This document shows, in pieces, positions 26,367 to 44,727 of a stretch of 64,000 nt of DNA; the stretch's first letter is position 1, and every line of letters begins with the position of its first letter. Origin of the DNA: an uncultured Acidobacteriota bacterium. GTDB taxonomy: Bacteria; Acidobacteriota; Thermoanaerobaculia; Multivoradales; JBCCEF01. The position numbers and the translations under genes were made by a program. The stretch is from positions 2,938,496-3,002,495 of the forward strand of contig CAVSQV010000003.1 of assembly GCA_963730155.1 (NCBI GenBank), in the 5' to 3' direction. The notes under the pieces were generated by a model that was given only the letters and a program-made list of their open reading frames with translations, was not told the origin of the DNA and did not search any database.

Positions 26367-26545
26367 GGCACGACGATACCATCGGCGCGGGGAGCATCTC
26401 GCGTGGGCTCCTTTCCCGCCACCCCCTCATCCGACATCGATCACGGCTCCGTAGTCCGCTCTCGACCGCGGCTTTCCTGACCGCGGTCCTGCGGAGCAGC
26501 GCATGGAGCGCTCGCTCCTTACCCTTTCGTTGGGAGAGTCGAACC

Positions 26546-27300
26546 ATGAGGATGGTAATCAAGCACTGCAGATGGGTCGCGGCCGCCGGGGCGCTCGGGC
26601 TTGCCCTTCTGACCACGAGCGCGACCGCACAAGAGCCTGGAGCGCCCTACCCTCCGGCGGGATCCGAGGAGGTCGTCCCGCGCTCCGCCCCGCGGCCGCA
26701 GGGGGGCACCGGGGCGGCGGGTGGAGCCAACCCCGTCGTCTCGGTCACTGCCAACCAGTGTGCCGCCAGGGGCGGAAGCTGCGATGCCGCCAACGACTGT
26801 GTGGTGTTCCGGAACGATCCCGAGCTCGGCTTGGTCCCGGTGATCGAAGGGACCTGTTCGGGCGGCGGCGACGGGGGCGGCCCGATCGGCGGCGGTTCAC
26901 AGGGCGGCGGCCCGGTCAACAACTGCACCGACGGGATCAACTCCGTGAGCTACAACGGCTTCTCTGTCGACTGCGGCAAGGAGGGCGAACGCTGCACCGC
27001 CGCCTGCCAGGAACGCCTCGACCCTCGCCATCCGCAGGCTCTGCAGCGATGCCTGCATTCGGGTCAACCTCAACTGCTGCACCGGCGAGGACCCGATCCG
27101 GCAGCAGTGCACCGCGCCGATCGGCGGCGACCGGCGCCGGCGCTGCGCTACCGATCGGGAGAGGCGCGATGTCGTCTGCGGTACCGACCCGGGCACGATC
27201 AACGGCCTGCCGCGCTCGATCCAGGACTGCCTGCAGGCGAGCCGGCTGCGGGAGGAACTGCTGCTCCGGGCTGGTCGAGCCCGAGAGCTGAGGACTGCCG
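26546..27300 (+). CDS. Secreted Cys-rich, Gly-rich protein, probably frameshifted near 27045
   Basis: RBS gggagag then ATG. The signal peptide is MRMVIKHCRWVAAAGALGLALLTTSATAQEP. It is followed by Cys-spaced modules (NQCAARGGSCDAANDCVV..GTCSGGGDGGGPIGGGSQGGGPVNNCTDG..SVDCGKEGERCTAACQERL). After ...RCLHS the frame turns into Arg-rich sequence. The +1 frame continues as Cys-rich sequence (ACIRVNLNCCTGEDPIRQQCTAPIGG...CGTDPGTINGLPRSIQDCLQ). The 3' end is uncertain. Confidence 0.4.
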
Positions 27301-27364
27301 GTCTGGACGAGAATCGGGCCGCCGTCCCCGCGGGCGGCGGCCCGATCGCCCGCTCACGCCGTCT

Positions 27365-30300
27365 TCAGACCGCCGCCGGGAGCCCCTCGTCCAGGGTGTC
27401 CTCGCCGATCTCGCCCACCGGCTCGCCCTCGCCCGACTCGGCCTCGGCGGTGCGGGTCTTGGCGACCAGCACGTAGATCGACGGCACGACGAAGAGCGTG
27501 AAGACCGTGCCGATGATCATGCCGGTGACCAGCATGATGCCGATGCGTTGCGCGCGCCGGCGCCCGGGCCGGTGGCGAAGACCAGCGGCAAGTGGCCGAC
27601 CACGGTGGCGGCGGTGGTCATCAGGATCGGCCGCAGCCGGGTGCGTCGACGGCCTCGATGACCGCCTGCGAGCTTGTCCCGCCCCTGCTCCTGCAGGTGG
27701 TTGGCGAACTCGACGATCAGGATGCCGTTCTTCGCCACCAGGCCGACCAGCGTGATCAGTCCCACCTGGCTGTAGATGTTGAGCGTGGTGAAGCCCAGGA
27801 ACGAGAAGAGCAGCGCGCCCGGAGAGCGCCAGCGGCACCGAGCCGGCGAGGATGATGAACGGATCGCGGAAGCTCTCGAACTGCGCGGCCAGCACGAGGT
27901 AGATCAGGATCGCCGAGAGCAGGAAGGTGCCGAGGAACTTGCTCGCCCTCGATGCGCAGCTGGCGCGACTCGCCGGCGTAGTCGACGGTGAAGCCCGGCG
28001 GCAGGATCTTCGCCGCCTCCTCCTCGAGGAAGCCGAGCGCCTGGTCGAGCGAGACGCCCGGCGGGATCGCGCCCTGGATGCGCACCGCGTTGAGCTGCTG
28101 GAAGCGCTTGAGCTCGCGCGGCTCGGTCGTGGTCTCGAGCGTGGCGAAGGTCGAGAGCGGCACCAGCTTGCCGTCGGGCCCGGTGACGTAGATGTCCTCG
28201 AGCTGGTCGGCGGTCAGCCGCTCGCTGCGCTTGACCTGCGGGATCACCTTGTAGCTGCGGCCCTGGATGCTGAAGCGGTTGACGTAGTTGCCGCCCAGCA
28301 GCGTCGAGAGGTCGCGGCCGGCCTGGCGCGAGGTCGACGCCCAGCGAGCGCACCTTGTCGCGGTCGAAGACCACCTCGGCCTGCGGCTGGTCGAACTTGA
28401 GGTCGGTGTCGGCGAACATGAAGAGGCCGCTCTGCGAACGCCTTGCCGACGAGCTGGTTGGCGAACTCGATGAGCTCGCTCGGGCTCGGCCGTCGAGGCG
28501 ATCACGAAGTCGACCGGGAAGTCGCCGCCGCCGGGCAGCGGCGGGCGGCGTGATCGGGATGACCCGCACGCCCGGGATCTGCGACAGCTTCGCCGACGCC
28601 TCGATCTGGAGCTCGGCCGACGGTGCTGCTCGCGCTCGCTCCACGGCTTGGTCACCATGCCGCCGAAGCCGCCGGTCGGGAAGGTGATCTGGAAGGTGGC
28701 GTCGGTCTCCGGGAACGACTCGAAGACCTCGTCGATCTCGTCGGCGAAGAGCGTGGTCTGGTCGATCGTCGCGTTGGCGCGCGGCCTGGACGATGCCGAA
28801 GACGACGCCCTGGTCCTCGGCCGGCGCCAGCTCGCTGCTGCGAGAACATGTAGAACGGCACGATCAGCAGCGACGACGATCACCCACAGCGTGAGCACCA
28901 CCGGCCGGTAGTCGAGCGTCCCCGACGAGCAGCCGCGCGTAGCGCTCGCGGACGCTCTCGAAGCGGCGGTTGACCAAGCCGGCGAAGCCGCGCTCGGTGT
29001 CGCCGGCGCGCAGCAGCTTCGAGCCCATCATCGGCGACAGCGTCAGCGCCACGACGCCGGAGACGATCACCGCGCCGGCCAGGGTGAAGGCGAACTCGCG
29101 GAAGAGCGAGCCGGTCAGGCCGCCCTGGATGGCGACCGGCGTGTAGACCGCGGCCAGGGTGATGGTCATGGCGATGATCGGACCGACCAGCTCGCGGGCC
29201 GCGTGCGATGCGCCGCCTGCGAACGGCGTCTTGCCCACGTGCAGGTGGCGCTCGACGTTCTCGACCATGACGATCGCGTCGTCGACCACGAGGCCGACCG
29301 AGAGCACGATGGCGAGCAGCGTCAGCAGGTTGATGGTGAAGCCCGCCGGCCAGCATGAGGAAGACCGCGCCGATCAGCGAGATCGGGATCGCCACCACCG
29401 GAATGATCACCGAGCGCACCGAGCCGAGGAAGAGGAAGATCACCAGGATCGACGATCAGCAGCGTCTCGCTCGAGGGTCTTGAGCACCTCGTCGATCGCG
29501 TCCTGGATGTAGTCGGTCGAGTCGTAGGGGATGCCGGCCTTCATCCCGGCCGGGAGCTGCGCCTGGATCTCCGGCATCGCCTCGCGCACCTGCGCCGATC
29601 ACGTCGAGCGTGTTGGCGGTCGGCAGCACCCAGATGCCCATGAAGGTCGCGGTCTCGCCGTTGAAGCGCACCTCCTGGTCGTAGTTCTCGGCGCCGAGCA
29701 CCACGTCGGCGATCTCGCCCAGCCGCACGACGCACGCCGTCCTCCTCCTTGACCACGAGCTGGCGGAACTCCTCGGCGGTCTGCAGGTCGGTGTTGGCGA
29801 TCAGGTTGACCGACATCATCGAGCCCTTGGTCCGGCCGAGCGCGGAGAGGTAGTTGTTCGCCGCCAGCGCGTCGCTGCGACCTCGGACGGCGAGATGCCG
29901 AGCGCCGCCATCCGCTCGGGCTTCGAGCCAGATCGCGCATGGCGAAGGTGCGGTCGCCGAGGATGTCGGCGCGCTGCACGCCGCTGATCGCCGACAGCCG
30001 CGGCTGCACGACGCGGGTCAGGTAGTCGGTGATCTGGTTCTGGTCGAGATCGTCGGAGGAGAAGCCGAGGTACATCGCCGCGAACTGGCTGTCCGCCGTC
30101 TCGAGCTCGATGATCGGCGCCTCGGCCTCGGGCGGCAGGTCGTTGCGCACCTGCGCCACCTTGGCCTGGATCTGGGTCAGCGCGGCGTTGGTGTCGTAGT
30201 TGAGCTTCAGGTGCACGGTGATCGTGCGACACGCCCTGCGCGCTCGACGACTCCATGTAGTCGATGCCGTCGGCGCTGGCGATCACCCGCTCGAGCGGCG

Positions 30301-30495
30301 TGGTGATGAAGCCGCGCACCAGGTCGGCGTTGGCGCCGATGTAGGCGGTGGTCACCCTGATCACCGCGATGTCGCTGCGCGGGTACTGCCGCACGGTGAG
30401 CGAGCGGATCGCCTGCAGCGCCGGCGATCAGGATCACCAGGTTGACGACGATCGCCAGCACCGGGCCGGCGGATGAAGAGGTCGGTGATCTTCAT
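27365..30495 (-). pseudogene. RND (HAE1/AcrB-like) inner-membrane efflux transporter, disrupted by multiple frameshifts
   Basis: The start MKITDLFIRRP and the end ...VVPSIYVLVAKTRTAEAE...DEGLPAAV are recognisable. AcrB-like segments are spread over at least 9 track ORFs in all three minus frames ([86 protein letters not shown] and others). The span length is not a multiple of 3. Confidence 0.75.
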
Positions 30496-30499
30496 CGAG

Positions 30500-31647
30500 C
30501 TGTCCTCCGGGCGTTCGTGGGCTTGGCGTCGGCGCTCGTTGCCGGGCTGGATCTCGTTGTTGACCTGGACCGCGGCGCCGTTGCGCAGCTTGAAGACGCC
30601 CGAGGTCACGACCTCCTCGCCCGGCTTGACGCCGGAGAGGACCGCGACCTGGTCGCCGCGCGCGCCGCCCAGCTTCACGAACTGCTGGCGCACGCCGCGG
30701 TAGGTCTTGCCGTCCGGCCCCTTGCATCGTCCTCGACGATGAAGACCGAGTCGCCGTAGGGCGCGTAGCTGATCGCCGAGGCCGGCAGCGCGACCACCGC
30801 CTGCCGCCGCGCCGAGCGCCGACCTGCGCCTCGACGAACATGCCGGGGCGCAGCGCGGCCGTCGGGGTTGGCGAAGGTCGCCTGCACCTGGACGTTGCGG
30901 GTCGCCTCGTCGACGACCGAGTCGACGGCGGTGATCTTGCCCGCGGCCGAGGCGCCGGCGGTGCCCTCGGCGGTCACCTGGACCTCGGTGCCCGGCCGCA
31001 GGCTGCGCCGACCTGCTGCTGCGGCACCGCGAAGTTGACGTAGATCGGGTCGAGCGACTGCAGCGGCACGACCGGGTCGCCGGCGTTCAGGTACTGGCCG
31101 AGGTTGACCTGGCGGATGCCGAGGACGCCGGCGAACGGCGCCCGGATCGTCTTGCGCTCGATGGTGGCGCGGATCTCGCCCACCCGCGCCTCGGCCTGCG
31201 TGCGGCTCGGCCTCGGCCCGGTCGAACTCGGCCTGCGAGATCACCCCCTTCTCGCGCAGCCCGCGGCATCCGCTCGAGGTTGAGCCGGGCCAGCTCGCGC
31301 TGCGACTCGGCGGCGGCGAGCTGCGCCTCCTCCTGGCTGGTGTCGAGCTCGACCAGCACCTCGCCCTTGCCGCACCGCGCGCCCGGAGTCGAAGGCGATC
31401 CGCTCGACGATGCCCGGCAGGTCGGCGCTGACGGTGACGCCCTGGACGGCGGCCACCGTGCCGATGGCGGAGAGCGTCGCCGGCCACTCGCTCCTGCTGG
31501 GCGACCACCGTGGTCACCGCCTCGGGCGGCGGCTGGAACGACGAGCCCTGGGCGATGGCCGTCTGGATCTGCCGGAACTTGAACATGCCGAGCGCCGATC
31601 AGCAGGACCGCGACGACGACCAGCATCAGGATCATGCGCTTTGCCAT
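30500..31647 (-). pseudogene. Membrane fusion protein (HlyD/AcrA-like periplasmic adaptor), frameshifted
   Basis: RBS ggagga then ATG (MAKRMILMLVVVAVLLIGA). Adaptor-like pieces (GEIRATIERKTIRAPFAGVLGIRQVNLGQYLNAGDPVVPLQSLDPIYVNF; ..VTSGVFKLRNGAAVQVNNEIQP) lie in different frames. No stop separates this gene from the RND start in the C-terminal frame. Confidence 0.6.
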
Positions 31648-31664
31648 GGTGGGATCCTCCGGTG

Positions 31665-33294
31665 TCTACTGCGCTTCTTGGGACGCTTCTTGGGGCGCTT
31701 CTTGCCGAGTTTCCGACTTCGATGCCGCGTTGCTGCGAGCAGCGACGCCGGTGGCGCGCGCCAGCTCGGTCGCGCGCGTCGGTAGTCGGTCTGACCGCCT
31801 CGATCTCGTCGAGCCGGGCGCTCGAGAGGTCGTTCTGGCGCGTCAGCACCAGGAAGTTGGTCGACATGCCCGACCGCGAAGCGCTCGCGCTCGGCGCCGA
31901 GCTGGACCTCGGCCGCCTCGCGGGCGGCGCGCGCCGCCTCGATGCGCCGTCCGCGGTCTCGAGCGCCGCGGCGGCGTCGAGCACCTCGGCGCGCACCGCC
32001 TTGCGCAGGATCGCGAGGTCGGCCTCGGCCTGCCGCTCGACGCTCTCGGCGATCGCCGCCGCCGCCCGCGCCTCGCGGTTGCCGATCGGCAGTTCGAGAC
32101 GCGAAGCCGATCCGCGCCTCGTCGAAGTCGCCGTCGACGAGCAGCTCGAGCGAGTCGCCGAAGTCGCCCTCGAGACCGCCCGGCACGCCGACCGGGAAGC
32201 CCGGGATCGGCTCGTTGCGCGGATTGCGCGAGCCGGCGAGACCGAAGCGGTCGTAGGAGACCACCGCGTCGAGCGCCGGCTTGACCGCGTCGCGGGCGAA
32301 GCCGGTCTCTGCGCGCCGCTGCTCGATCACCGCCTCGGCGGCGTCCAGCTCGGCGCGCAGCGCCAGCGCTTCGCCGATCGCCGCGCCGAGATCGACCTCG
32401 ACCGGCGTCACCTCGACCGGCTCGACCGGCACCACCGGCGCCAGCCAGAGATCGGCGTCGGCGTCCGACAGGATCAGGAGCTTCAGGTTGTTCTCGGCCC
32501 GGGCGACCAATTCGCGGGTCTCCAAGAGCTCGCCCCGCCGCCGCTCCAGCTCGGCGCGCGGCTGAGCGATCTCGGTCTCGGGCGAGGCCCCGTTCTCGAT
32601 ACGGATCTCGGTCTCGGAGAGTTGCTCCTCGGCGAGCGCGCACCGCCTCCTCGCGAACCTCGACGGCGCGGCGGAAGGCGAGCAGGATCCAGTAGGCCCG
32701 CTCGACCTCGGCGACCGTCTCGATCACCTCGCGCTCGAGCGAGGCGGCGGCGCGGTCGCGATCGGCGGCGGCGACCCGGAGGCGCAGCCGGGCGGCGTCG
32801 ATCCCGCGGTCGCGCAGGAGCGGCTGGCGCAGCTCGACGCCGAGGCCCGACCCGTACGATGGCGACAACAGGTCGAACGAGGCGTCCGATTCCGTGCGCG
32901 CGCCGTCGGCGGAGACCAGCACCTGGCCGCCGGTGGGGAGGAGCTGGCGCACGCCGGCGCCGGCGTCGAAGCCCTCGAGCGTGGGCGCCAGCTCGCCCTC
33001 GGGCGCCCCGGAGAACGCCGAGTTGACCGGCGAGGTGCTGCGGAACCAGCCGGCGTCCACCCCGAGCACCGGGTCGTAGGCGCCCTCGGCGCCGGTGATC
33101 GCCGCCTCGGCGGAGTCGAGCGACAGCCGCTCGATCAGGATGGTCTCGTTCTTCTCGAGGGCGCGCGCGATCGCCTCCTCGAGGGTCAGCGCGGAGAGGT
33201 CCGTAGTTTGTGCGCCAGCCGCGGGCGCGAAGGCGGCGACGAGCGCCAGCGCGGCCAGCCGCCGCGGCGCCCGGGTTCGGAGGATCGATCTCAC
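31665..33294 (-). pseudogene. TolC-like outer membrane factor, frameshifted
   Basis: GTG start with a signal peptide (MRSILRTRAPRRLAALALVAAFAPAAGAQ). The N-terminal ~215 aa are OMF-like (LTLEEAIARALEKNETILIERLSLDSAEAAITGAEGAYDPVLGV...). Continuation pieces in two other frames (ETRELVARAENNLKLLILSDADADL..., ...STNFLVLTRQNDLSSARLDEIEAV) end ...QEAPQEASQEAQ. Confidence 0.65.
31671..31710 (-). repeat. 12-nt tandem repeat, about 3 copies, at the 3' end of the OMF gene
   Basis: The plus strand reads gcgcttcttggg acgcttcttgggg cgcttcttgcc. On the minus strand this encodes the (Q-E-A-x)3 tail ..RQEAPQEASQEAQ-stop of the TolC-like protein. Confidence 0.4.
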
Positions 33295-33533
33295 GTCTTG
33301 TCTCCCACCAGCTCGACCTTCTGGATGCAGGGATCGATCCCCGCGGCGAAGCTCTCGAAGCGCGCGGCGTCGAGTGCGACCAGAGCCCGCACCTCGCAGA
33401 CGTTGAAGTGCAGCCCGCTCTCGATCAGCTCCTGGATCGCGGCCTGCGGACCGGCGCCGAAGCGGCGGCGGAACCCCTCGTCCGTCACCAGCTTCCCGAT
33501 CACCGTCTCGACGTTGCGTTGGCTCATGGTCAC
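33291..33533 (-). CDS. Small Nif11/NHLP-leader-like domain protein (80 aa)
   Basis: The sequence is MTMSQRNVETVIGKLVTDEGFRRRFGAGPQAAIQELIESGLHFNVCEVRALVALDAARFESFAAGIDPCIQKVELVGDKT. The x-L-V-T-D-x-x-F-R-x-R-F...P-x-A-A-[IL]-x-E-L pattern followed by an amphipathic helix resembles Nif11/NHLP-type leader-like domains. Its TGA overlaps the GTG start of the downstream OMF gene (GTGA). Confidence 0.55.
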   Translation of the reverse strand: MTMSQRNVETVIGKLVTDEGFRRRFGAGPQAAIQELIESGLHFNVCEVRALVALDAARFESFAAGIDPCIQKVELVGDKT

Positions 33534-33781
33534 CTCCCCGGCGGGGGCGTCTACTCCAAGGCGCGTGCCAGGCCCCCCGGGGAGCGGCCCCCCGAGCCGA
33601 AAGTCCCTGACCTCATCAGGCTTCGGCGAGCGAGACCCGTGGCCCGGCGCGTCGCGAACCGGTCGGCCGCGAGTGTCGATAACTCTACACTCTGTCGGAA
33701 TGCGGGCACCTGGCGGCTGTCCCGATCCACCGACGGGCGCCGCACTGGGGGGATGAGGAAGACCTGCACAGGAGGACCGCC

Positions 33782-35458
33782 ATGCCCCGGAGCCCGCTCG
33801 CGCCAGCCGTCGCCGCCGTCGTCGCCCTCGCCCTCGCGCTGCTCGCCCTGCCCGCCGGCGCCGCCGCGGCCGGCCCGGCGCCGGACCTCGTGCTCTTCAA
33901 CGGCAAGGTGTTCACCGCGGACCCCGGACGGCCGTGGGCCTCGGCGGTGGCGGTGCGCGGCGCGCGCATCGCCGCGGTGGGCGAGGATGCGCCGGTGCGC
34001 TCGCTCGCCGGACCGGGGACGGTGTCGATCGACCTCGGCGGGCGCGTCCTGGTGCCCGGCTTCAACGACGCCCACGGCCACCTCGGAGTCGGCTTCCCGC
34101 GCCTGACCCTGCCGCCGATCGCCATCCCCGGCCCGGGTCCGACCCTCGCCCAGGCGCTCGACCAGGTGGCCGGGGCGGTGGCGGTCGCCGCGCCGGGCGA
34201 GGTGATCCTGGCGATCGTCGGCGAGGCGGTGATCCTCGACCCGGCGGCCGACCGCACGGCGATCGACGCGGTGGCGCCCGACAACCCGGTGATGCTCCTC
34301 ACCTGGTCGTCGCACAGCGCGGTGGTCAACAGCGCGATGCTGGCGCTCGGCGGCGTCGGCGAGGAGGAGCCCGACCCGTTCGGCGGCTCCTACGACCGCT
34401 TCCCGGGCACGGACGTGGTCAACGGCGTGGTCCACGAGTACGCGCTGTTCCGGCTCATCGGCGCGGTCCGCGCGACCGTGCCCGACGCGGTGCTGCGCGC
34501 CGAGTTCGAGGCCCTGACCGCGCTCGCCGCCCGGGCCGGCGTGACCACCGTCCAGGAGATGACCATCGGCGTCTCCCGCGCGCGCAGCGTCGCGATCCTC
34601 GCCGGCGCCGATCTCGCGGTGCGGGTGCGCTCGATGTGCGTGCCGCTGGCGCTCGACGAGCCGTGCGCGCCGGGGCCGGTGACGCCGCTCGACCGGCTGA
34701 CCTGGTCCGGGATCAAGTGGCTGGTCGACGGCACGCCGATCGAGCGCAGCGCCGCGCTGCGCGAGCCCTACGCCGACCACCCGGGGACCGGCCGGATCAA
34801 CGTCGGCGGCGCCGACCTCCGGGCGGCGGTCCGGCGGAGCCTCCTCCACCCGCTGACCGGCCAGCTCTTGACCCACGCGGTCGGCGACCGCGCCCTCGAC
34901 CAGGTCCTGGGCGAGCTCGACCGCTCGGCGCCCGACCTGGTCTGGCGCCTGCTCCGCCCGCGCATCGAGCACGGCGACCTGCTACACCCCGAGCAGATCG
35001 CCGCCGCGCGCCGGCTCGGTGCGATCGTGGTCCAGAACCCGACTCACCTGGCGGTCGACTTCGAGCCCTCGCTCGGTCCGGTGCGGGCGGCGGCGATGCA
35101 GCCGTTGCGCACCCTGCTCGAGGAGGGCGTCCGCCTCGCCCTGGGCTCCGACGCCGCCCTCCCCAACCCGTTCCTCGACGTCTTCCTCGCCGTGGTCCAC
35201 CCGTTCCACCCGGACGAGGCGCTGACCGTCGAGCAAGCAGTCACCGCCTACACCCGAGGCTCCGCCTACGCCGAGCACCAGGAGTGGCAGAAAGGGGCGA
35301 TCCGGCCCGGCTACCTGGCCGACCTCGCGGTGCTCTCCCAGGACGTCTTCGCGATCCCGCCCGCGGCGATCCCGGCGACGGTGAGCGTGCTGACGCTCGT
35401 CGGCGGCGACGTGGTGTGGGACGCGGGCGTCCTCACACCTGCCGCTCCTGGGTCTTGA
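33782..35458 (+). CDS. Secreted amidohydrolase-family metal-dependent hydrolase
   Basis: 558 aa. The signal peptide is MPRSPLAPAVAAVVALALALLALPAGAAAA. The metal-binding HxH motif is (VPGFNDAHGHLGVG). The C-terminal region ...LGSDAALPNPFLD... is typical of amidohydrolase_3-like enzymes. Confidence 0.8.
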   Translation: MPRSPLAPAVAAVVALALALLALPAGAAAAGPAPDLVLFNGKVFTADPGRPWASAVAVRGARIAAVGEDAPVRSLAGPGTVSIDLGGRVLVPGFNDAHGHLGVGFPRLTLPPIAIPGPGPTLAQALDQVAGAVAVAAPGEVILAIVGEAVILDPAADRTAIDAVAPDNPVMLLTWSSHSAVVNSAMLALGGVGEEEPDPFGGSYDRFPGTDVVNGVVHEYALFRLIGAVRATVPDAVLRAEFEALTALAARAGVTTVQEMTIGVSRARSVAILAGADLAVRVRSMCVPLALDEPCAPGPVTPLDRLTWSGIKWLVDGTPIERSAALREPYADHPGTGRINVGGADLRAAVRRSLLHPLTGQLLTHAVGDRALDQVLGELDRSAPDLVWRLLRPRIEHGDLLHPEQIAAARRLGAIVVQNPTHLAVDFEPSLGPVRAAAMQPLRTLLEEGVRLALGSDAALPNPFLDVFLAVVHPFHPDEALTVEQAVTAYTRGSAYAEHQEWQKGAIRPGYLADLAVLSQDVFAIPPAAIPATVSVLTLVGGDVVWDAGVLTPAAPGS

Positions 35459-36533
35459 GCGAGACGTAGGTCCCCGAGCTGAGGCCCAGGAGGACGAGGA
35501 GCTGGTCGCTGAAGGTGGGCATCGTCAGCCGGGTCACGACCGCGTAGACGAAGTAGCCGCCGAGGACCAGCGTCCAGAGGACGAACTGGAGGCGGTAGAC
35601 GCTGTAGCCGTTCTCGTCTTGGAGCAGGTCGGAGAAGAAGGTCTTCGCCGACTGGCGCTTGATCGCCGTGGTCTGCGCCAGCTCGGCCGCCACCTTGCGC
35701 TGCTGTTCGAGCACCGCCTGGTCGCTCACCTTCGCCACCGTCTGCGGGTCGTTCAGCCTGGCCTGCTCGCTCTCGAGCGCCTCCCGCCGCCGGACCTGTG
35801 CCTCCTTGCCGCCGTCGACCACCGCGCTGCCCAACCCGGTCGCGGCGCTGATGCCGAGGAGCGCCAGGACGTCGCCGTTGAGGTTGGCGGCGGCGCCGGT
35901 CGAGATCAGGATCAGCAGGAAGGCGCCGAGCGCCAGGACGGTCCAGAACGCGATCTGCGTGCGGCCGAGGCTGTAGGGACCGGCGGCCCCGCCCTCGCGC
36001 AGGAGCGGCGTCGTCCGCGCGAGCCAGACGGTGAGCCCGGCGATCAGCAGCATGATGCCGATCCAGGTCCACCTCCAGAACGGCGTCAGCACCGAAAGGG
36101 TCAGTGCGACCTCGTTCGTGCGCGGCCAGGCGACCCCGGGGCACGACTCGTAGCCGAGGCTCGCCTTCACCCGCCGGGTCCCGGGACCGAAGAGCGAGCC
36201 CGAGGCGAGGTGCGCCCACGGGTTGTGCCCGGAGTCCGCCGCCGCACCCTGCATCCAGCTCGGCTCGAGGTCGAAGCGCACGCGGTCGGGCCCGAGATGC
36301 TGGGGCACGATCCCGGGCATCGCGAAGCCGTCGAGGAAGAGGCGCAGCTCCTGGTCCGGCCCGCGGTCGGGACAGAGGCGCTCGAGGTTCGCGACCGTGA
36401 ACGTCACCTCGTCGCCGAGCGCGAAGCGGTCCGGCGTCACCGACCGGATGGCGGCGCCGCCCTGGGCCTCGGCTCCTGTGAAGGCGATCCCGGTGATCGC
36501 TACGCCGAGAAGAACACGACCGATGGCATTCAT
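35433..36533 (-). CDS. Hypothetical membrane protein with an N-terminal signal, a periplasmic domain and a C-terminal 4-TM region
   Basis: RBS ggtaagaggaaaagggggggacc then ATG (MNAIGRVLLGVAITGIAFTGAEAQ). The protein is 366 aa. A coiled-coil-like segment (RREALESEQARLNDPQTVAKVSDQAVLEQQRKVAAELAQT) lies between TM helices. It overlaps the amidohydrolase 3' end convergently. Confidence 0.55.
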   Translation of the reverse strand: MNAIGRVLLGVAITGIAFTGAEAQGGAAIRSVTPDRFALGDEVTFTVANLERLCPDRGPDQELRLFLDGFAMPGIVPQHLGPDRVRFDLEPSWMQGAAADSGHNPWAHLASGSLFGPGTRRVKASLGYESCPGVAWPRTNEVALTLSVLTPFWRWTWIGIMLLIAGLTVWLARTTPLLREGGAAGPYSLGRTQIAFWTVLALGAFLLILISTGAAANLNGDVLALLGISAATGLGSAVVDGGKEAQVRRREALESEQARLNDPQTVAKVSDQAVLEQQRKVAAELAQTTAIKRQSAKTFFSDLLQDENGYSVYRLQFVLWTLVLGGYFVYAVVTRLTMPTFSDQLLVLLGLSSGTYVSLKTQERQV

Positions 36534-36629
36534 GGTCCCCCCCCTTTTCCTCTTACCGTCTGACTCGGGTATCTCCCTTGAGGGTAGCATCGCACTGCTA
36601 GAGTCGGGGAACGTCGAGAGGGGCTACTC

Positions 36630-36896
36630 ATGAAAGAAGCAGTCCTGACCTACCCTGACGGCCTTCCTCAGTCCCTCAAGCTCTCGGACCGGGAGTTCGC
36701 CGAGGAGCTGCGCTTCCTCGCAGCGGCCAAGCTCTTCGAGCTGGGCCGGCTGTCTTCGGGTAAGGCCGCCGAGCTCGCGGATCTCGATCGGCTCACCTTC
36801 CTGGGCCGCCTGGCTTCGATCGGCGTCGCGGCGATCAACCTGCGAGAGGAAGAGGTGACCGCCGAGCTGGACATGGCCCGCGGTCTGGCTGGATGA
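36630..36896 (+). CDS. UPF0175-family antitoxin
   Basis: 88 aa. The sequence MKEAVLTYPDGLPQSLKLSDREFAEELRFLAAAKLFELGRLSSGKAAELADLDRLTFLGRLASIGVAA matches the UPF0175 pattern (..EEF..E.R.L.A.KLYE.G.LS.G.AAELAG..R.EFL..L...GV...). RBS gagagggg. Its stop overlaps the next gene's start (ATGA). Confidence 0.8.
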   Translation: MKEAVLTYPDGLPQSLKLSDREFAEELRFLAAAKLFELGRLSSGKAAELADLDRLTFLGRLASIGVAAINLREEEVTAELDMARGLAG

Positions 36897-37387
36897 GCCC
36901 GTGGATCGTCGACGCCGGACCCTTCGTCTTCCTCGCGAAGCTTGACCGTCTGTCCGTCCTGAGAGGACCCGCTCCATCGGTCCTGATGCCGGCGGCAGCG
37001 GCCCGCGAGGTCCTGGCGCACCCGGATCGCGCGACACAGGCGCTCCAGCGTGCGTCGAGCGACTGGCTGGAGATCGTCGAGGTCGAAGATCGCCTCGCCG
37101 CCGGCCTCCTCCTCCCCTCCCTTGGACCCGGCGAAGCCGAGGTGATCGCCCTGGCGAGGGAACGATCTGCGACGACCGTGGTCCTGGACGACCTCGATGC
37201 CCGGCGATTCGCCCGCCGGGTCGGCCTTCGACCGGTCGGCACGCTCGGCCTGCTGCTCGCCGCCCGCTTGCGCAACGAGCTGCCGTCGCTCCGCGCCGAG
37301 ATCCTCCGACTGGAGGAGGCGGGGTTCTACGCCAGCGACGCGCTGACCGCTGCCGTTCTGGAGGCGGCCGGCGAAGCGCCGCCGTGA
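36893..37387 (+). CDS. DUF3368-family PIN-like nuclease (toxin partner of UPF0175)
   Basis: 164 aa. The sequence MSPWIVDAGPFVFLAKLDRLSVL...GPGEAEVIALARERSATTVVLDDLDARRFARRVGLRPVGTLGLLLAA has the DUF3368 pattern (VVDTSPLI.LA.IGRLDLL ... GEAEAIALA.E...DLLLIDD..AR..A...GL...GTLG.L). Confidence 0.75.
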   Translation: MSPWIVDAGPFVFLAKLDRLSVLRGPAPSVLMPAAAAREVLAHPDRATQALQRASSDWLEIVEVEDRLAAGLLLPSLGPGEAEVIALARERSATTVVLDDLDARRFARRVGLRPVGTLGLLLAARLRNELPSLRAEILRLEEAGFYASDALTAAVLEAAGEAPP

Positions 37388-37388
37388 C

Positions 37389-39477
<2,089 letters not shown>

Positions 39478-39602
39478 CGGACCGACGATGTTACTCCGCG
39501 GCCGCGGCGGCGCTCCGGAGGCGGCGCTTCGAGTTCGACCGCAAGCCGCGCATAGCGGGCCGGCCGCGGGAGGCCTATCCTCTCGGGTCAGGAGGCAGGG
39601 CG

Positions 39603-40721
39603 ATGACCATGATCCAGAGCCGACGGTTCGATCCCGAGGCCGACCCCGACGCCGCCTGGGCCGCGGTCGAGACGCGCGACCGCGGGAGCGACGGCCGCTT
39701 CGTCTTCGCGGTCACGACCACCGGCGTCTTCTGCCGGCCGTCGTGCCCGGCGCGCCGGCCGAAGCGCCGGAACGTCCGCTTCTTCGCCGCCCCCGAGGCG
39801 GCCGCCGCGGCGGGGTTCCGGGCCTGCCTGCGCTGCCGCCCGGCCGAGGCCGGCGGCGAGGCCGCGGCCGACCCGGCGCTCGCGCCGGTCCTCCAGGCGC
39901 GCGACTACCTCGAGGCGCACCTCGACGAGACGGTGACCCTCGATCGCCTGGCCGCCGAGGTCGGGCTCTCCCCCTGGCACCTGCAACGCAGCTTCAAGCG
40001 CCGGCTCGGCGTGAGCCCGCGCGACTACGTCAACCAGCGCCGCCTGGAACGCCTGCGCGGCCGTCTGAGAGATGGAGACGACGACGTGACCACCGCCCTC
40101 TACGACGCCGGGTTCGGCTCGGCGAGCCAGCTCTACACCCAGTCCGACGCCCGGCTCGGGATGACCCCGGGCCGCTACCGCGCCGGCGGCGCCGGCGAGC
40201 GCATCCGCTTCGCCACCGTGCCGACCGCGCTCGGCCGCCTCCTGGTCGCGGCCACCGACCGCGGGGTCTGCTCGGTCCAGCTCGGCGACCGCGACGAGGA
40301 CCTCGCGGCCGGCCTCGAGCGCGAGTTCCCGCGCGCCGCGATCGAGCCCGCGGACGACCGGCTCCAGCCGTGGATCGACGCCGTGCTCCGATTCGTCGAA
40401 GGGCACGTCGATGGAGACCTTGCGGGCGAGCCCGCCGCGCGGCCGCCGCTCGACCTCGCCGGCACTGCCTTCCAGCGCCGCGTCTGGCAGGCCCTGACCG
40501 AGATCCCGCCCGGTACCACCCGCACCTACGGCGAGGTCGCGGCCCGGCTCGGCCGCCCGACCGCCGCGCGCGCAGTGGCCCGCGCGTGCGCCACCAACCC
40601 GGCGGCGGTGGTGGTGCCCTGCCACCGGGTGGTGCCGGCGGGCGGCGGGACCGGCGGCTACCGCTGGGGCGCCGAGCGCAAGCGCGCGCTCCTGGCGCGC
40701 GAGCGGGCGGGCCGGGGCTAG
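39603..40721 (+). CDS. ada: Bifunctional Ada regulator: methylphosphotriester-DNA methyltransferase/AraC-type HTH fused to O6-methylguanine-DNA methyltransferase
   Basis: The N-terminal Zn-Cys4 Ada domain is FVFAVTTTGVFCRPSCPARRPKRRNVRFF...ACLRC. An AraC-type HTH lies in the middle (LDRLAAEVGLSPWHLQRSFKR). The C-terminal MGMT carries the PCHRV active site (VVPCHRVV). Confidence 0.85.
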   Translation: MTMIQSRRFDPEADPDAAWAAVETRDRGSDGRFVFAVTTTGVFCRPSCPARRPKRRNVRFFAAPEAAAAAGFRACLRCRPAEAGGEAAADPALAPVLQARDYLEAHLDETVTLDRLAAEVGLSPWHLQRSFKRRLGVSPRDYVNQRRLERLRGRLRDGDDDVTTALYDAGFGSASQLYTQSDARLGMTPGRYRAGGAGERIRFATVPTALGRLLVAATDRGVCSVQLGDRDEDLAAGLEREFPRAAIEPADDRLQPWIDAVLRFVEGHVDGDLAGEPAARPPLDLAGTAFQRRVWQALTEIPPGTTRTYGEVAARLGRPTAARAVARACATNPAAVVVPCHRVVPAGGGTGGYRWGAERKRALLARERAGRG

Positions 40722-40725
40722 GCCC

Positions 40726-43074
40726 TCACAGCTCCTTTCGCCGCAGCCGCAGCGCGTTGGCGATCACCGACACCGACGAGAAGCTCATCGCCGCGGCGGC
40801 GAGCATCGGGGAGAGGAGCCAGCCGGTCCAGGGGTAGAGGAGGCCGGCGGCGATCGGGATGCCGAGGGTGTTGTAACCGAACGCCCAGAGCAGGTTCTGG
40901 CGGATGTTGGCGAGGGTGGCGCGCGACAGGCGGCGGGCGGTGACGATGCCGCGGAGGTCGCCACGGACCAGGGTCACCGCCGCGCTCTCCATGGCGACGT
41001 CGGTGCCGGTGCCCATGGCGATGCCGACTTGCGCCCGGGCCAGCGCCGGGGCGTCGTTGATGCCGTCGCCGGCCATCGCGACGAAGCGGCCCTCGGCCTG
41101 GAGGCGCTCGATCTCGGCCAGCTTCTCCTCGGGGCGGACCTCGGCGAGGAAGCGGCCAATGCCCAGCTCGCGCGCCACCGCCTCGGCGGTCGGCCGGGCG
41201 TCGCCGGTGAGCATGACGATCTCGACCCCCTCCTCGCGCAGCGCGGCGATCGCGGCCGGGGTCGACTCCTTGATCCGGTCGGCGACGGCGAGGAGGCCGG
41301 CGGCGCGGCCGTCGATCGCCAGCATCACCACCGTGCGGCCGGCCTGGCCTAGCTCGGCAGCGGCGGCCGCGAGCGGTGACGGGTCGATCCCGGACCCCTC
41401 GAGCAGCCGGCGGTTGCCGAGCGCGGCGGCCCGCCCTTCGACCTCGCCGCGCACCCCCTGGCCGGTGACCGACTCGAAGCCTTGGGTCTTCGGCGTCTCG
41501 ACGCCGCGCTCCGCGGCGCCGGCCAGGATCGCGGCCGCCAGCGGGTGCTCGCTGCCGCGCTCGAGCGCCGCGGCGACGCGCAGCACCTCGTCCTCGGTGA
41601 AGCCGGGGGCGGCGCGCACCGCGACCAGGCGCGGCTTGCCCTCGGTCAGGGTGCCGGTCTTGTCGACCACCAGGGTGTCGACCCGGCTCAAGGTCTGGAT
41701 CGCCTCGGCGTCGCGGAAGAGGACTCCGTGCTCGGCGCCGCGGCCGGTGGCGACCATCACCGACATCGGCGTCGCCAGGCCGAGCGCGCACGGGCAGGCG
41801 ATGATCAGGACCGCGACGGCGTTGACCAGCGCGTGGGCGAGCCGCGGCTCGGGGCCGAGGATCGCCCAGGCGGCGAAGGTGATCGCCGCCACCGCCAGCA
41901 CCGCGAGCACGAACCAGCCCGAGATGACGTCGACCAGGCGCTGGATCGGCGCCCGGCTGCGCTGCGCCTTCGCCACCAGCTCGACGATCCGCGCCAGCAG
42001 CGTCTCCGAGCCGACCCGTTCGGCGCGCACGACCAGCGAGCCGGTGCCGTTGACGGTGGCGCCGACGACGGCGTCGCCCGGGCCCTTTTCGGCCGGCATC
42101 GGTTCGCCGGTGATCATCGACTCGTCGACCGCGCTCGCGCCCTCGACCACCGTGCCGTCGACCGGCACCTTCTCGCCCGGGCGGACGCGGAGCAGATCGC
42201 CGGGCGCGATCTCGGCGAGCGGCACGTCCTCCTCGCGGCCGTCGTCGCCGATCCGCCGCGCCGTCGCCGGCGCCAGGCCGAGGAGGCGCCGGATCGCCGC
42301 TCCGGTCTCGCCGCGCGCCTTGAGCTCGAGCACCTGGCCGAGGAGCACCAGGGCGGTGATCACCGCCGCGGCCTCGAAGTAGACCGGCACGCGGCCGCCG
42401 TGGCCGCGGAAGGCGGGCGGGAAGATCCCGGGCGCGATCACCGCCGCCAGGCTGAAGCCGTAGGCGACGCCGACGCCCAGGCCGATCAGCGTGAACATGT
42501 TGAGACTGCGGTTTTTGACCGACGCGACCGCGCGGACGTAGAACGGCCACGCCGCCCAGGTCGCGACCGGCGTCGCGAAGAGGAGCTGGAGCAGCACCTG
42601 GACGCGCGGCGAGAGGAGGCGCCCGATCGGGTCGCCCGGGATCATCTCGCCCATCGCCAGCGCCAGGGTCGCGAGCGCCAGCGGCACCGAGATCCGGAAG
42701 CGCCGCAGCATGTCGAGGTACTCGGGGTTCGGACCCTCCTCGGCGGTCACCGTCCGCGGCTCGAGCGCCATGCCGCAGATCGGGCAGCTCCCGGGCCGGT
42801 CGCGCACCACCTGCGGGTGCATCGGGCAGGTCCACTCGGTCTTGATGGCGGCGGCGGCCGGGGTCGCCGGCTCGAGCGCCATGCCGCACTTCGGGCAGGC
42901 GCCGGAGCCGGCGGCCTCGACCTCGGGGTGCATCGGGCAGGTCCAGACGGCGCCCGGGGGCGCCTCGGCCGGGAGTGCCTCGGCCGCCCCGGCGCAGCAG
43001 TCGTGTCCGGCCGGCGCAACGGGCTCGGCGCCCGCGTCGTGGCAGCAGGCGTGCTCGTGCTTCGGCTCGGGCAT
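40726..43074 (-). CDS. copA: Copper-translocating P1B-type ATPase with duplicated N-terminal heavy-metal-binding domains
   Basis: Start [13 protein letters not shown]. Two CPMHPE...CPxCGM(A)LEP metal-binding repeats are followed by a TM domain with the CPC motif ([13 protein letters not shown]), the DKTGT phosphorylation site ([11 protein letters not shown]), [10 protein letters not shown] and [10 protein letters not shown]. Everything upstream of this start in the 1295-aa track ORF is antisense artefact. Confidence 0.85.
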
Positions 43075-43116
43075 CGAAGGAAGTGTAACGCCCGCCGACC
43101 GCGCTACACTTCCACC

Positions 43117-43617
43117 ATGCCCGCGCGCGAAGACTCGGTCCTGAAGAGCCCCTGGTTCTGGGGCGTCGGCGGCTGCTGCCTCGGTTGCGTCGGCATCCCG
43201 CTGGCGCTGGTGGCGATCTTCGGCGCCGGCATCTTCGGCGCCCTGGGCGCGATGTCGCACAGCGACGTCATCGACCTGGCGATCACGCGCGCCGAGGCCG
43301 ACCCGCGGGTCGCCGAGACGCTCGGCACGCCGCTCGAGCGCGGCTTCATGTTCCAGGGCTCGATCCAGATCGAGAACGACCGCGGCTCGGCCGACGTCGT
43401 CGTGCCGGTCACCGGCCCGCTCGGCAAGGGCGAGCTGTGGGTGGTCGGCAGCCGCGAGGGGGGCGAGTGGCGCCTCGAGCGCCTCGAGGCCGAGATCGTG
43501 GCGACCGGCGAGCGGATCCCGATCGACCTCGGCGGCCTGCCGCCGGCCGCCGCGCCGGCGACGCCGCTGGAAGCGCCCGATCCGGCCGCTTCGACGGACG
43601 GCGATCCGGTCATCTGA
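43117..43617 (+). CDS. Membrane-anchored hypothetical protein (possible Coa1/DUF1783-like fold)
   Basis: ATG in frame with track ORF 41482..43617. The N-terminal TM is [41 protein letters not shown]. The soluble domain is ...[79 protein letters not shown]. The family assignment is tentative. Confidence 0.4.
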
Positions 43618-43644
43618 CCACGGCCGCCCCCGAGCCTGCTCCCG

Positions 43645-44727
43645 ATGTCCACCCTCCTCCTCTTCGTCCTCGGCGGCGCTCTGCTCGTGGCGGGCGCCGA
43701 GCTCCTGGTGCGCGGCGCCTCGCGGCTGGCGGTGGCGGCGGGGATCTCGCCGCTGGTCGTCGGCCTGACCGTGGTCGCCTTCGGCACCAGCGCGCCGGAG
43801 CTGGCGGTGACGGTGGGCGCGGCGGTGACCGGCCAGGCCGACGTCGCGCTCGGCAACGTCGTCGGCAGCAACATCGGCAACGTCCTCCTGATCCTCGGCC
43901 TCTCCGCCGCGGTGGCGCCGCTGGTGGTGGCGCAGCGGCTGGTCTGGATCGAGGTGCCGCTGATGATCGGCGTCTCGGTCGTCACGCTGCTCTTCGCGCT
44001 CGACGGCCGGATCGGCCGGATCGAGGGGCTCCTCCTCTTCGCCGGCATCGTCGCCTACACCGTCTTCGCGGTCCGCCGCAGCCGGCGCGAGAGCGCGGCC
44101 GTGCGCGCGGAGTACCGCGAGGAGTTCGGGCGCGCCGGCCGGAGCCGTTGGGCCTGGGCGGTCGACTGCGCGATGGTGCTCGCCGGGCTGGCGCTCCTGG
44201 TCCTCGGCGCCCACTGGCTGGTCGAGGGCGCGGTCGCCGTGGCCGAGGCGCTCGGGGTCAGCGAGCTGGTGATCGGCCTGACCGTGGTCGCGATCGGCAC
44301 CTCGCTCCCGGAGCTCGCGACCTCGGTACTCGCCTCGCTCCGCGGCGAGCGCGACATCGCGGTCGGCAACGTCGTCGGCAGCAACCTCTTCAACCTCCTG
44401 GCGGTGCTCGGCCTGGGGAGCGCGCTCGCGCCGGACGGCATCGCGGTGCCGCGCGCGGCGCTGACCTTCGACCTGCCGGTGATGATCGCGGTCGCCGTCG
44501 CCTGCCTGCCGATCTTCTTCACCGGCCACGCCATCTCGCGCTGGGAGGGGTGGCTGTTCATCGCCTACTACGGCGCCTACACCGCCTTCCTGATCCTCGA
44601 CTCCGCGAGCCACGACGCGCTGCCGGCGTTCTCCGCCATGCTCGCCTGGTTCGCGCTGCCGCTGACCGCGGTGACCCTGGCGATGCTGACCTGGCGCGCC
44701 GCGCGGGCCGGCCGCGGCGGCGATTAG
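43645..44727 (+). CDS. Ca2+/cation antiporter (CaCA family, YrbG-like)
   Basis: 360 aa. Two alpha-repeat regions carry GTSAPELAV.. and [10 protein letters not shown].. motifs. About 10 TM helices are predicted. Confidence 0.8.

What the first reader, a model, noticed from the sequence alone, without database searches (positions are those of the whole stretch)
33291..33533. Nif11/NHLP-leader-like small protein translationally coupled to an efflux operon
The protein MTMSQRNVETVIGKLVTDEGFRRRFGAGPQAAIQELIESGLHFNVCEVRALVALDAARFESFAAGIDPCIQKVELVGDKT has the helix-rich, LVTDxxFRxRF..P.AAIxEL signature that I associate with Nif11 and nitrile-hydratase-leader-peptide domains, the leader families of many RiPP precursors. 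Here there is no obvious GG cleavage motif and only a ~15-aa tail (GIDPCIQKVELVGDKT). The gene is fused by a GTGA overlap to an RND-type efflux operon rather than to the ABC/C39 exporters usual for such RiPPs. It may be a small regulator or an exported or modified peptide specific to this pump.
Basis: partly seen in the sequence, partly recalled or inferred. Interest (0 to 1): 0.55.

Follow-up and report, generated by a model that had tools for sequence, protein, structure and literature searches.

The report
Leader-like small protein heading efflux operon
A real 78-residue helical protein, related to the leader part of some modified-peptide precursors but with no peptide cargo, is the first gene of a sigma-54-controlled drug-efflux operon conserved in Acidobacteriota; its role is unknown, and a regulatory one is my best guess.

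Summary
The ORF is real. Its true start is ATG 33527, giving 78 aa (MSQRN…). Its stop overlaps the GTG start of a TolC-like gene (GTGA), followed by adaptor and RND pump genes.

It passes NCBIfam NF038399, "Os1348 family NHLP clan protein" (65 bits, cutoff 40). Its AlphaFold model matches only the Os1348 crystal structure 6LK7 (TM 0.62-0.71). It does not hit Nif11 or the NHLP/Nif11 leader models, and it is below the Pfam PF14407 threshold.

It is a whole folded domain with no core peptide. The C-terminal "GD/GG" is the ribosome-binding site of the next gene, not a cleavage motif. No RiPP-modifying enzymes are nearby.

In about 40 related loci (mostly Thermoanaerobaculia MAGs) the small gene is the first cistron behind a conserved sigma-54 promoter (TGGCACG-N4-TTGG) and a NifA-type upstream site. 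A GAF-type sigma-54 activator usually lies nearby. The downstream cargo varies, and 52 very similar adaptor-RND operons lack both the small gene and (39 of 40 checked) the promoter.

So it tracks the regulatory module, not this pump. My inferred best guess is a cytoplasmic modulator of the activator.

The pump and activator genes in this window carry many single-base insertions, which are probably assembly errors.

The parts
33291..33527 (-). Small gene: 78 aa plus stop. Os1348-family NHLP-clan protein (MSQRNVETVIGKLVTDEGFRRRF...DPCIQKVELVGDKT).
   Evidence: ORF and translation. NF038399 65.2 bits, cutoff 40. PF14407 40.1 bits, below the gathering score of 48. AF2 model pLDDT 86.8 with five helices. 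Foldseek match to 6LK7, TM 0.62-0.71. Synonymous codon variation at invariant residues.
33533..33537 (-). Shine-Dalgarno GGAGG of the small gene, 5 nt before ATG 33527.
   Evidence: Read directly from the sequence. Homologues all start at MSQRN.
33556..33570 (-). Sigma-54 type -24/-12 promoter TGGCACGCGCCTTGG.
   Evidence: Only match to TGGCAC-N5-TTGS in the 64 kb window, with 0.09 expected by chance. The same element lies upstream of the small gene in nearly all related loci. The exact motif occurs once per locus in 17 loci, always at that place.
33600..33624 (-). Conserved inverted-repeat element (GAAGCC-N13-GACTTT on the minus strand) between the upstream site and the promoter. It may be a bending-protein or regulator site.
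   Evidence: Seen at the same offset in many loci when they are anchored on the -24 element. Its function is not tested.
33674..33698 (.). Putative activator binding site (UAS): TGTCGA-N4-TCTACA-N3-TGTCGG. This is a tandem TGT-N10-ACA (NifA-type) palindrome about 104-128 nt upstream of the -24 element.
   Evidence: The motif CGACA-N3-TGTCGA-N4-TCGACA lies at a fixed distance from the promoter across loci.
31632..33294 (-). TolC/OEP-family outer-membrane channel gene. Its GTG start overlaps the small gene's stop. It is split over three frames in this assembly, and its 3' end is approximate.
   Evidence: Pfam OEP. tblastn hits in frames -2, -3 and -1. An intact 540-aa version lies on an independent contig.
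30500..31647 (-). RND periplasmic adaptor (MFP) gene, frameshifted in this assembly. Coordinates are approximate.
   Evidence: tblastn with the L001 and L006 MFPs. The relative's MFP matches TIGR01730.
27365..30495 (-). HAE1-type RND permease gene, split by many frameshifts in this assembly.
   Evidence: tblastn with the L001 RND, with segments up to 89% identical in alternating frames. The relative's RND matches multidrug RND_permease_2.
37395..39486 (-). GAF / AAA+ / HTH sigma-54 enhancer-binding protein (EBP) gene on the same strand, about 3.9 kb upstream of the small gene. It is frameshifted in this assembly.
   Evidence: tblastn with the L001 and L006 EBPs. The relatives' domain architecture is GAF, Sigma54_activat, HTH_8. 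The best NCBIfam match is NifA, below its cutoff.

Best explanation
Shown by the analysis: the gene encodes a 78-residue, all-helical protein with no signal peptide or membrane helix. It belongs to the Os1348 family (NHLP clan, LigA-like fold). It is a leader-like domain with no core peptide attached. It is the first, translationally coupled cistron of an operon encoding a TolC-like channel, an adaptor and an HAE1-type RND pump. That operon sits behind a conserved sigma-54 promoter with a NifA-type upstream site, and a GAF-type enhancer-binding protein (EBP) gene is usually nearby.

Inferred: because the small gene travels with the activator and promoter while the downstream cargo changes, its most likely role is as a cytoplasmic partner of that regulatory module. 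One concrete possibility is a feedback modulator of the activator, as PspA is for PspF. It is unlikely to be a secreted or modified peptide, or an obligatory pump subunit.
For: Family and fold:
- NF038399 is above its cutoff.
- 6LK7 is the only meaningful structural match.
- The model is a confident five-helix domain covering residues 3-63, with conservation extending to about residue 72.

No core peptide:
- Short homologues end 4-6 residues after DPCIQKVEL.
- The 'GG/GD' is encoded by GGA GGN or GGA GAC, 7-8 nt before the overlapping RTGA start of the next gene. It is absent where the next gene is not overlapped.
- Long homologues carry a variable acidic insert, not a Cys/Ser/Thr-rich core.

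No maturases:
- Pfam annotation of the window and of six clean related loci shows no YcaO, RiPP-type radical SAM, lanthionine synthetase, SagB, HEXXH peptidase or C39-ABC gene next to the small gene.

Operon and regulation:
- The order small gene, then OEP-MFP-RND or MFP-RND, holds in about 26 of 33 informative genome loci.
- The promoter, upstream site and EBP are conserved.

The small gene tracks the regulator, not the pump:
- 52 operons with an RND 76-85% identical to that of L001 lack the small gene. Of the 40 I checked, 39 lack the sigma-54 motif, and some have MarR-like genes or NodT-type outer-membrane factors instead.
- The small gene with an EBP precedes a 31%-identical RND family, a HlyD+ABC exporter or a DedA-rhodanese protein elsewhere.

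Cytoplasmic role:
- Distant homologues are fused to universal-stress-protein domains.
- Strong protein-level selection acts on the N-terminus MSQRNVE...TDEGFRRRF.
Against: - No experiment or interaction prediction links the small protein to the activator. The regulatory role rests only on co-occurrence.
- Three loci with 10 kb of flank show no EBP (L014, L019, L030).
- The only studied relative, Os1348, was linked to antibiotic activity, putative modification genes and higher cellular levels in an RND mutant (PMC7726476). That points towards a product or export role.
- Being first in an operon is also compatible with any accessory function.
- In this window the pump and activator genes are frameshifted, so function in this particular genome copy depends on those being errors.
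Confidence: 0.45

Rival explanations
1. It is a precursor or product of a RiPP-like or bacteriocin-like system, as proposed for Os1348. The protein, or a fragment of it, would be modified or processed by enzymes encoded elsewhere and leave the cell with the help of the co-encoded tripartite pump.
For: - NHLP-clan membership.
- The founder, Os1348, contributes to antibiotic activity and accumulates in an RND (Os1353) mutant (PMC7726476).
- About half of the 37 close homologues carry a hypervariable C-terminal extension.
- One variant locus has a HlyD-type adaptor with a weak hit to the NHLP bacteriocin secretion model TIGR03794, together with ABC ATPases.
Against: - There is no core peptide or cleavage motif in the 76-78-aa forms. 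The C-terminal GG/GD is explained by the downstream ribosome-binding site.
- No modification enzymes are conserved in any of the annotated loci.
- There is no signal peptide. RND pumps are not known to export folded cytoplasmic proteins (established knowledge of RND transporters).
- Conservation is highest across the folded domain, not leader-like only.
- Fusions to cytoplasmic USP domains occur.
Confidence: 0.15
2. It is a cytoplasmic accessory of the efflux response itself. It could be a binder or buffer of the toxic inducer or substrate, or an assembly or stability factor for the channel or pump. In that case it would be co-expressed stoichiometrically through translational coupling with the OEP gene.
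For: - Tight 4-nt coupling to the OEP gene occurs in most loci.
- All six RND loci with a TolC-type OEP upstream and enough flank have the small gene.
- Read-through fusions of the small domain to the OEP occur in databases (P0151 and P0178).
- Two cysteines are near-invariant in this subfamily.
Against: - The small gene also occurs directly before the MFP-RND genes without an OEP (L004, L021, L027, L028), and before a DedA-rhodanese protein.
- The cysteines are absent from the wider family, which has DPRLQK and TxxE instead.
- The OEP is periplasmic or outer-membrane, whereas the small protein has no export signal.
- Most very similar pumps work without it.
Confidence: 0.25
3. The locus is a decaying, non-functional operon in this genome, and the small ORF is a remnant.
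For: The OEP, MFP, RND and EBP genes are each broken by multiple frameshifts in the window.
Against: - The breaks are almost all single-base insertions relative to a relative, about 30 in 4 kb, with high amino-acid identity retained within each frame segment.
- They are patchy across the window.
- Contigs from what look like long-read assemblies show the same pattern in other genomes (L019, L038, L126).
- An independent short-read contig with the identical small protein carries an intact 540-aa OEP.
Confidence: 0.05

Closest known systems
Os1348 of Pseudomonas sp. Os17 (PDB 6LK7; NCBIfam NF038399 'Os1348 family NHLP clan protein')
   Same: - Small size (78 vs 85 aa), all-helical, with no signal peptide.
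- The HMM is above its cutoff.
- Profile-to-sequence match over nearly the full length, E 0.018.
- Structural match at TM 0.62-0.71, rmsd 2.2 A, 25% identity.
- Both lie next to a tripartite RND efflux system.
   Different: - Os1348 is followed by GNAT, HEXXH-peptidase-like and SagB-like genes and is under GacA control. Its neighbouring emhABC pump is convergent and is conserved in strains that lack Os1348.
- Here there are no such enzymes. The small gene is in the same operon as the pump, overlaps the OEP gene by 4 nt, and is behind a sigma-54 promoter with a GAF-type activator.
NHLP / Nif11-type RiPP leader peptides (TIGR03793, TIGR03798, PF07862) with C39-ABC/HlyD export
   Same: - Helical N-terminal domain with the ...xxVxxLxTDxxFRxxF..P... 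signature.
- Sub-threshold hit to TIGR04509.
- Non-significant N-terminal similarity to nitrile hydratase alpha chains, E about 1.
- The literature places PF14407, Nif11 and the nitrile hydratase alpha chain in one LigA-like fold group (PMC12353581).
   Different: - No hit to the Nif11 Pfam model or to the leader models.
- No Gly-Gly cleavage site followed by a core peptide.
- No maturase genes.
- The transporter is an RND pump, not a C39-peptidase ABC exporter.
Pfam PF14407 Frankia_peptide (ATP-grasp-associated predicted peptides)
   Same: It is the only Pfam family hit. The match covers profile positions 2-62 of 63, E 4.7e-10.
   Different: The score of 40.1 is below the gathering score of 48. 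No ATP-grasp gene is adjacent; the ATP-grasp genes in the window are 26 kb away.
PspA/PspF-type circuits, in which the first gene of a sigma-54 operon encodes a protein modulator of its own enhancer-binding protein
   Same: By analogy only. The gene is the first cistron of a sigma-54 operon, an EBP without a receiver domain is encoded nearby, and the small gene co-occurs with the EBP rather than with a particular cargo.
   Different: There is no sequence or fold relationship to PspA, and no evidence of interaction. This comparison concerns how the system might work, not family membership.

Membership tests
Os1348 family NHLP clan protein (NCBIfam NF038399) | Score above the curated HMM cutoff over the full model | tested here: met
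   65.2 bits against a cutoff of 40, E 4.1e-18, model positions 1-63 of 63. NCBI gives the same name to homologues P0032 and P0243.
Os1348 family NHLP clan protein (NCBIfam NF038399) | Fold like the founder's crystal structure (6LK7) | tested here: met
   AF2 model pLDDT 86.8. Foldseek top three hits are 6LK7 chains, probability 1.00, TM 0.61-0.71, rmsd 2.2-2.3 A. The next hit has E 2.5.
Os1348 family NHLP clan protein (NCBIfam NF038399) | Founder-like gene cluster (GNAT, HEXXH peptidase-like, SagB-like). This is a feature of the founder locus, not of the HMM family. | tested here: not met
   None of these genes is next to the small gene in the window or in L001, L004, L006, L126-L128.
Pfam PF14407 Frankia_peptide | Score at or above the gathering threshold | tested here: not met
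   40.1 bits against a gathering score of 48. The database's precomputed tables list PF14407 for the homologues, in several cases flagged 'weak'.
Pfam PF14407 Frankia_peptide | Association with an ATP-grasp peptide ligase | tested here: not met
   No ATP-grasp gene lies within 10 kb in the annotated loci. The window's ATP-grasp, GCS2 and RLAN genes lie at 1.3-7.4 kb, 26 kb away.
NHLP / Nif11 RiPP precursor (TIGR03793, TIGR03798, PF07862) | Match to the leader HMMs | tested here: not met
   No Nif11 hit at E<=1 in Pfam. At E<=10 NCBIfam returns only NF038399 and a sub-threshold TIGR04509 hit of 23.8 bits against a cutoff of 34.
NHLP / Nif11 RiPP precursor (TIGR03793, TIGR03798, PF07862) | Gly-Gly type cleavage site followed by a core peptide | tested here: not met
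   The protein ends 6 residues after the conserved domain. The GG/GD codons are the Shine-Dalgarno of the overlapping next gene and vanish when there is no overlap.
NHLP / Nif11 RiPP precursor (TIGR03793, TIGR03798, PF07862) | Neighbouring maturase (YcaO, radical SAM, LanM etc.) and C39-peptidase ABC exporter | tested here: not met
   None was found in the window or related loci. The only radical SAM in the window is of the HemN/HemW type, 23 kb away.
Sigma-54-dependent operon | -24/-12 promoter (GG-N10-GC class) upstream of the first gene | tested here: met
   TGGCACGCGCCTTGG lies at 33556-33570(-) and is unique in the window, with 0.09 expected. It is conserved and unique in related loci. 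The -12 element reads TTGG rather than the textbook TTGC. The evidence is in silico only.
Sigma-54-dependent operon | Cognate enhancer-binding protein and upstream binding site | tested here: met
   A GAF-AAA+-HTH EBP gene lies within about 2.5-7 kb in most loci. A tandem TGT-N10-ACA site sits at a fixed distance from the promoter. Binding itself was not testable here.
Tripartite RND efflux system | OMF (TolC/OEP), MFP adaptor and RND permease genes in one operon | tested here: met
   All three are present downstream and intact in relatives. In this window they are interrupted by probable assembly frameshifts.

The most novel reading that the evidence does not exclude
Leader-only NHLP-clan proteins of this subfamily could be a new class of protein modulators (anti-activator or co-sensor) of GAF-type sigma-54 enhancer-binding proteins that control envelope and efflux stress operons in Acidobacteriota. 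This would mean a RiPP-leader-like fold has been recruited for transcriptional feedback rather than for peptide maturation.
Probability: 0.25. Interest if true: 0.7.

Novelty: new variant of a known kind. Interest (0 to 1): 0.45.

Why it matters
Small NHLP, Nif11 or Frankia_peptide-like ORFs are routinely flagged by genome-mining tools as RiPP precursors. This case shows a sizeable subfamily that has the leader-like fold but no core peptide and no maturases. The subfamily comprises more than 1,300 clusters at 90% identity and occurs mostly in uncultured Thermoanaerobaculia and other Acidobacteriota. It is instead tied to a sigma-54 promoter, an activator and an efflux operon.

Three consequences follow:
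- It warns against annotating such ORFs as "modified peptide".
- It gives a concrete, testable regulatory circuit for multidrug-type efflux in a poorly studied phylum.
- It adds independent genomic support to the unexplained link between Os1348 and an RND pump reported in Pseudomonas.

Tried and rejected
- **Nif11 / NHLP leader membership:** no HMM hits. Only clan-level kinship is retained.
- **C-terminal GD/GG as a double-glycine protease site:** rejected. The codons are GGA GGN or GGA GAC, 7-8 nt before the overlapping start, and they disappear in loci without overlap.
- **Conserved cysteines as a redox or metal sensor for the whole family:** rejected as a general mechanism, because the wider family lacks both.
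- **Obligatory pump subunit:** rejected, because 52 closely similar MFP-RND operons lack it.
- **Pseudogenised operon:** considered unlikely.
- **Paralogous copies in one genome:** not demonstrated. L011 and L012 are 90-97% identical contigs, more likely strain variants or a recent duplication, and L017 and L036 are overlapping contig ends.
- **RiPP-type radical SAM in the window:** the only radical SAM signal is HemN/HemW-like.
- **ATP-grasp/GCS2/RLAN genes at 1.3-7.4 kb as partners:** they are 26 kb away and absent from related loci.
- **Literature:** only one experimental paper on the family was found (PMC7726476). Nothing turned up on NHLP-like proteins with sigma-54 or RND.
- **Context of very distant members:** look-ups returned only short contigs.
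- **Not attempted:** a mirror-tree style co-evolution test, because shared phylogeny would dominate the signal.
Full report
**Observation**

The window has an 80-codon ORF at 33291..33533 on the minus strand with exactly the translation quoted. Every homologue starts MSQRN, and a GGAGG lies 5 nt upstream of ATG 33527. The real product is therefore 78 aa (33291..33527).

Its TGA stop overlaps the GTG start (33294) of an ORF that matches Pfam OEP. tblastn with proteins from clean relatives shows an adaptor (MFP) gene and an RND permease gene further downstream.

The ORF is a true gene for three reasons. It has the coding-phase GC3 signal. It has 37 homologues in the first search and 1,316 clusters at 90% identity with a profile. 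Its invariant residues are encoded by many synonymous codons, including both serine codon families and both arginine families.

**Family**

- NCBIfam places it above the curated cutoff in NF038399, "Os1348 family NHLP clan protein" (65.2 bits against 40).
- TIGR04509 "NHLP-related RiPP peptide" is hit below its cutoff.
- Pfam gives only PF14407 Frankia_peptide, below its gathering score (40.1 against 48). There is no Nif11 hit.
- A family profile finds the Os1348 chain 6LK7 over nearly its full length, at E 0.018.
- The AlphaFold model (pLDDT 86.8, five helices) matches 6LK7 and nothing else in the PDB (TM 0.62-0.71, rmsd 2.2 A, probability 1.0).

Os1348 is an 85-aa dimeric helical protein of Pseudomonas sp. 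Os17. It contributes to antibiotic activity and sits beside putative modification genes (GNAT, HEXXH, SagB-like) and the emhABC RND pump. It accumulates in an RND mutant, and its mechanism is unknown (PMC7726476). A 2025 ECOD curation paper groups Frankia_peptide, Nif11, the nitrile hydratase alpha chain and LigA in one fold group.

**Not a canonical precursor**

The alignment shows conservation along the whole domain up to ...DPCIQKVEL (about residue 72). The N-terminus is invariant (MSQRNVE, then TDEGFRRRF). Short forms end 4-6 residues later. Longer forms insert a variable acidic stretch before the same last four residues.

Those last residues (G-D/G-x-x) are encoded by GGA GGN or GGA GAC, 7-8 nt before the overlapping ATGA/GTGA/TTGA start of the next gene. 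That makes them its Shine-Dalgarno sequence. Loci where the next gene does not overlap lack them. So there is neither a double-glycine cleavage site nor a core peptide.

No YcaO, RiPP-type radical SAM, lanthionine synthetase, SagB, HEXXH or C39-ABC genes occur near the gene in the window or in six annotated clean loci.

**Conserved context**

A pattern scan of representative genomes returned 37 loci, almost all Thermoanaerobaculia or other Acidobacteriota MAGs.

In about 26 of 33 informative loci the small gene is immediately followed by OEP-MFP-RND, or by MFP-RND. The RND is HAE1-type, 74-91% identical between loci. A GAF-AAA+-HTH sigma-54 enhancer-binding protein gene usually lies 2.5-7 kb upstream. 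In the window it is at 37395-39486(-).

Upstream of the small gene almost every locus has TGGCACG-N4-TTGG.
- In the window this is at 33556-33570(-). It is the only match in 64 kb, with 0.09 expected by chance.
- The exact motif occurs once per locus in 17 loci, always at that place.
- About 100-128 nt further upstream lies a tandem palindrome, CGACA-N3-TGTCGA-N4-TCGACA (TGT-N10-ACA, the NifA-type site). In the window it is at 33674-33698.
- Another conserved inverted repeat lies between the two, at 33600-33624 in the window.

On sequence evidence, this is a complete sigma-54 promoter architecture.

**Which partner does the small gene follow?**

Eighty metagenome loci were retrieved with an RND 76-85% identical to the reference RND of relative L001.
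- 52 with enough upstream sequence have MFP-RND but no small gene and no TolC-type OEP upstream.
- Of the 40 of these that I checked, 39 have no sigma-54 motif.
- Some instead carry what look like MarR-type regulator genes (recognised by eye) or NodT-type outer-membrane factors.
- All six with a TolC-type OEP upstream and enough flank have the small gene.

Conversely, the small gene, with an EBP and/or the promoter motif, also heads other operons:
- an unrelated RND family, about 30% identical (L029, L083, L105);
- a HlyD-adaptor plus ABC exporter (L042);
- a DedA-rhodanese membrane protein (L031, L039).

Distant homologues are fused to universal-stress-protein domains. The two cysteines that are conserved in this subfamily are absent from the wider family.

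The constant companions are therefore the activator and its promoter. The small gene is not tied to a particular pump.

**Explanation**

Shown: this is an Os1348-family, leader-only helical protein with no export signal. It is the translationally coupled first cistron of an EBP-controlled efflux operon with a predicted sigma-54 promoter.

Inferred (about 0.45 for the whole statement): it works in the cytoplasm as part of the regulatory module. One possibility is feedback modulation of the GAF-type activator, by analogy with PspA-PspF. That analogy is functional only, not one of family membership.

Rivals:
- an accessory or ligand-binding factor of the efflux response (0.25);
- a RiPP-like exported product, as suggested for Os1348 (0.15);
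- a decaying operon (0.05).

**Assembly caveat**

In the window the OEP, MFP, RND and EBP genes are each split over several frames. Alignment to a relative shows about 30 single-base insertions in 4 kb, not in homopolymers. The affected regions are patchy: 26.4-33.2, 36.6-39.5 and 45-57 kb.

Contigs named like Microflora Danica or other long-read assemblies show the same fragmentation (L019, L038, L126). A short-read Logan contig (ERR12035939) encodes the identical 78-aa protein followed by an intact 540-aa OEP with the 4-nt overlap. I therefore treat the frameshifts as technical.

**Novelty and score**

The protein family is already named in NCBIfam, and its founder has a crystal structure. 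What I could not find in the searchable literature is this variant: no maturases, operonic with a tripartite pump, behind a sigma-54/EBP module, and widespread in Acidobacteriota.

I rate it a new variant of a known kind, interest 0.45. It gives a clear, testable circuit and a useful annotation warning, but the function is still inferred.

Noticed in passing
window 26400-33200, 36600-39500, 45000-57000: Patches where genes switch reading frame every 100-400 bp, while neighbouring genes stay intact (for example the amidohydrolase at 33782-35458 and genes at 14.8-19.9 kb and 57.7-64 kb). In the efflux operon the breaks are mostly single-base insertions relative to a relative, not in homopolymers. 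They are probably unpolished long-read errors.
   Followed up: partly
window 1342-7438 (-): A cluster of an ATP-grasp_4 protein, a GCS2 glutamate-cysteine-ligase-like protein and an RLAN+RimK-like ATP-grasp protein. This is a peptide-ligase type neighbourhood. It lies 26 kb from the small gene and is not found next to its homologues.
   Followed up: no
window 33600-33624: A conserved inverted repeat (GAAGyC-N13-GACTTy on the operon strand) between the activator site and the -24/-12 promoter, at the same offset in many related loci. It could be a bending-protein site or a second regulator's site.
   Followed up: partly
P0085, P0098 (distant homologues, not in the window): The small Os1348-like domain occurs fused to one or two universal-stress-protein (Usp) domains. 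P0151 and P0178 show it fused in frame to the OEP protein, probably read-through of the 4-nt overlap or an assembly error.
   Followed up: partly
window 36630-37387 (+): A UPF0175 / DUF3368 gene pair, probably an antitoxin plus PIN-like toxin module, inserted between the small-gene locus and the activator gene.
   Followed up: no
window 39243-44745: An Ada-like regulator (Ada_Zn_binding, AraC HTH and methyltransferase DNA-binding domains) at 39243-40718(+). Next to it is a heavy-metal P-type ATPase with HMBD motifs on the minus strand. The ATPase's long upstream ORF extension overlaps a Na/Ca-exchanger family gene at 43618-44724(+), so that extension is probably spurious.
   Followed up: no
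window 47500-57700 (+): Several paralogous PQQ_2/BamB-like beta-propeller ORF fragments, followed by a HemN/HemW-type radical SAM gene (Radical_SAM fragment at about 56.5 kb, HemN_C at 57223-57735). This is not a RiPP maturase.
   Followed up: partly
window 35433-36590 (-): A 385-aa ORF with strong coding signal between the amidohydrolase and the toxin-antitoxin pair has no Pfam family.
   Followed up: no
L001 8875-9642, also L004, L016, L019, L020, L023, L038: In about eight related loci a 255-260-aa gene lies divergently just upstream of the small gene, with at most a faint LpxR-like Pfam signal and no NCBIfam hit. In the window that position is occupied by an amidohydrolase instead.
   Followed up: no
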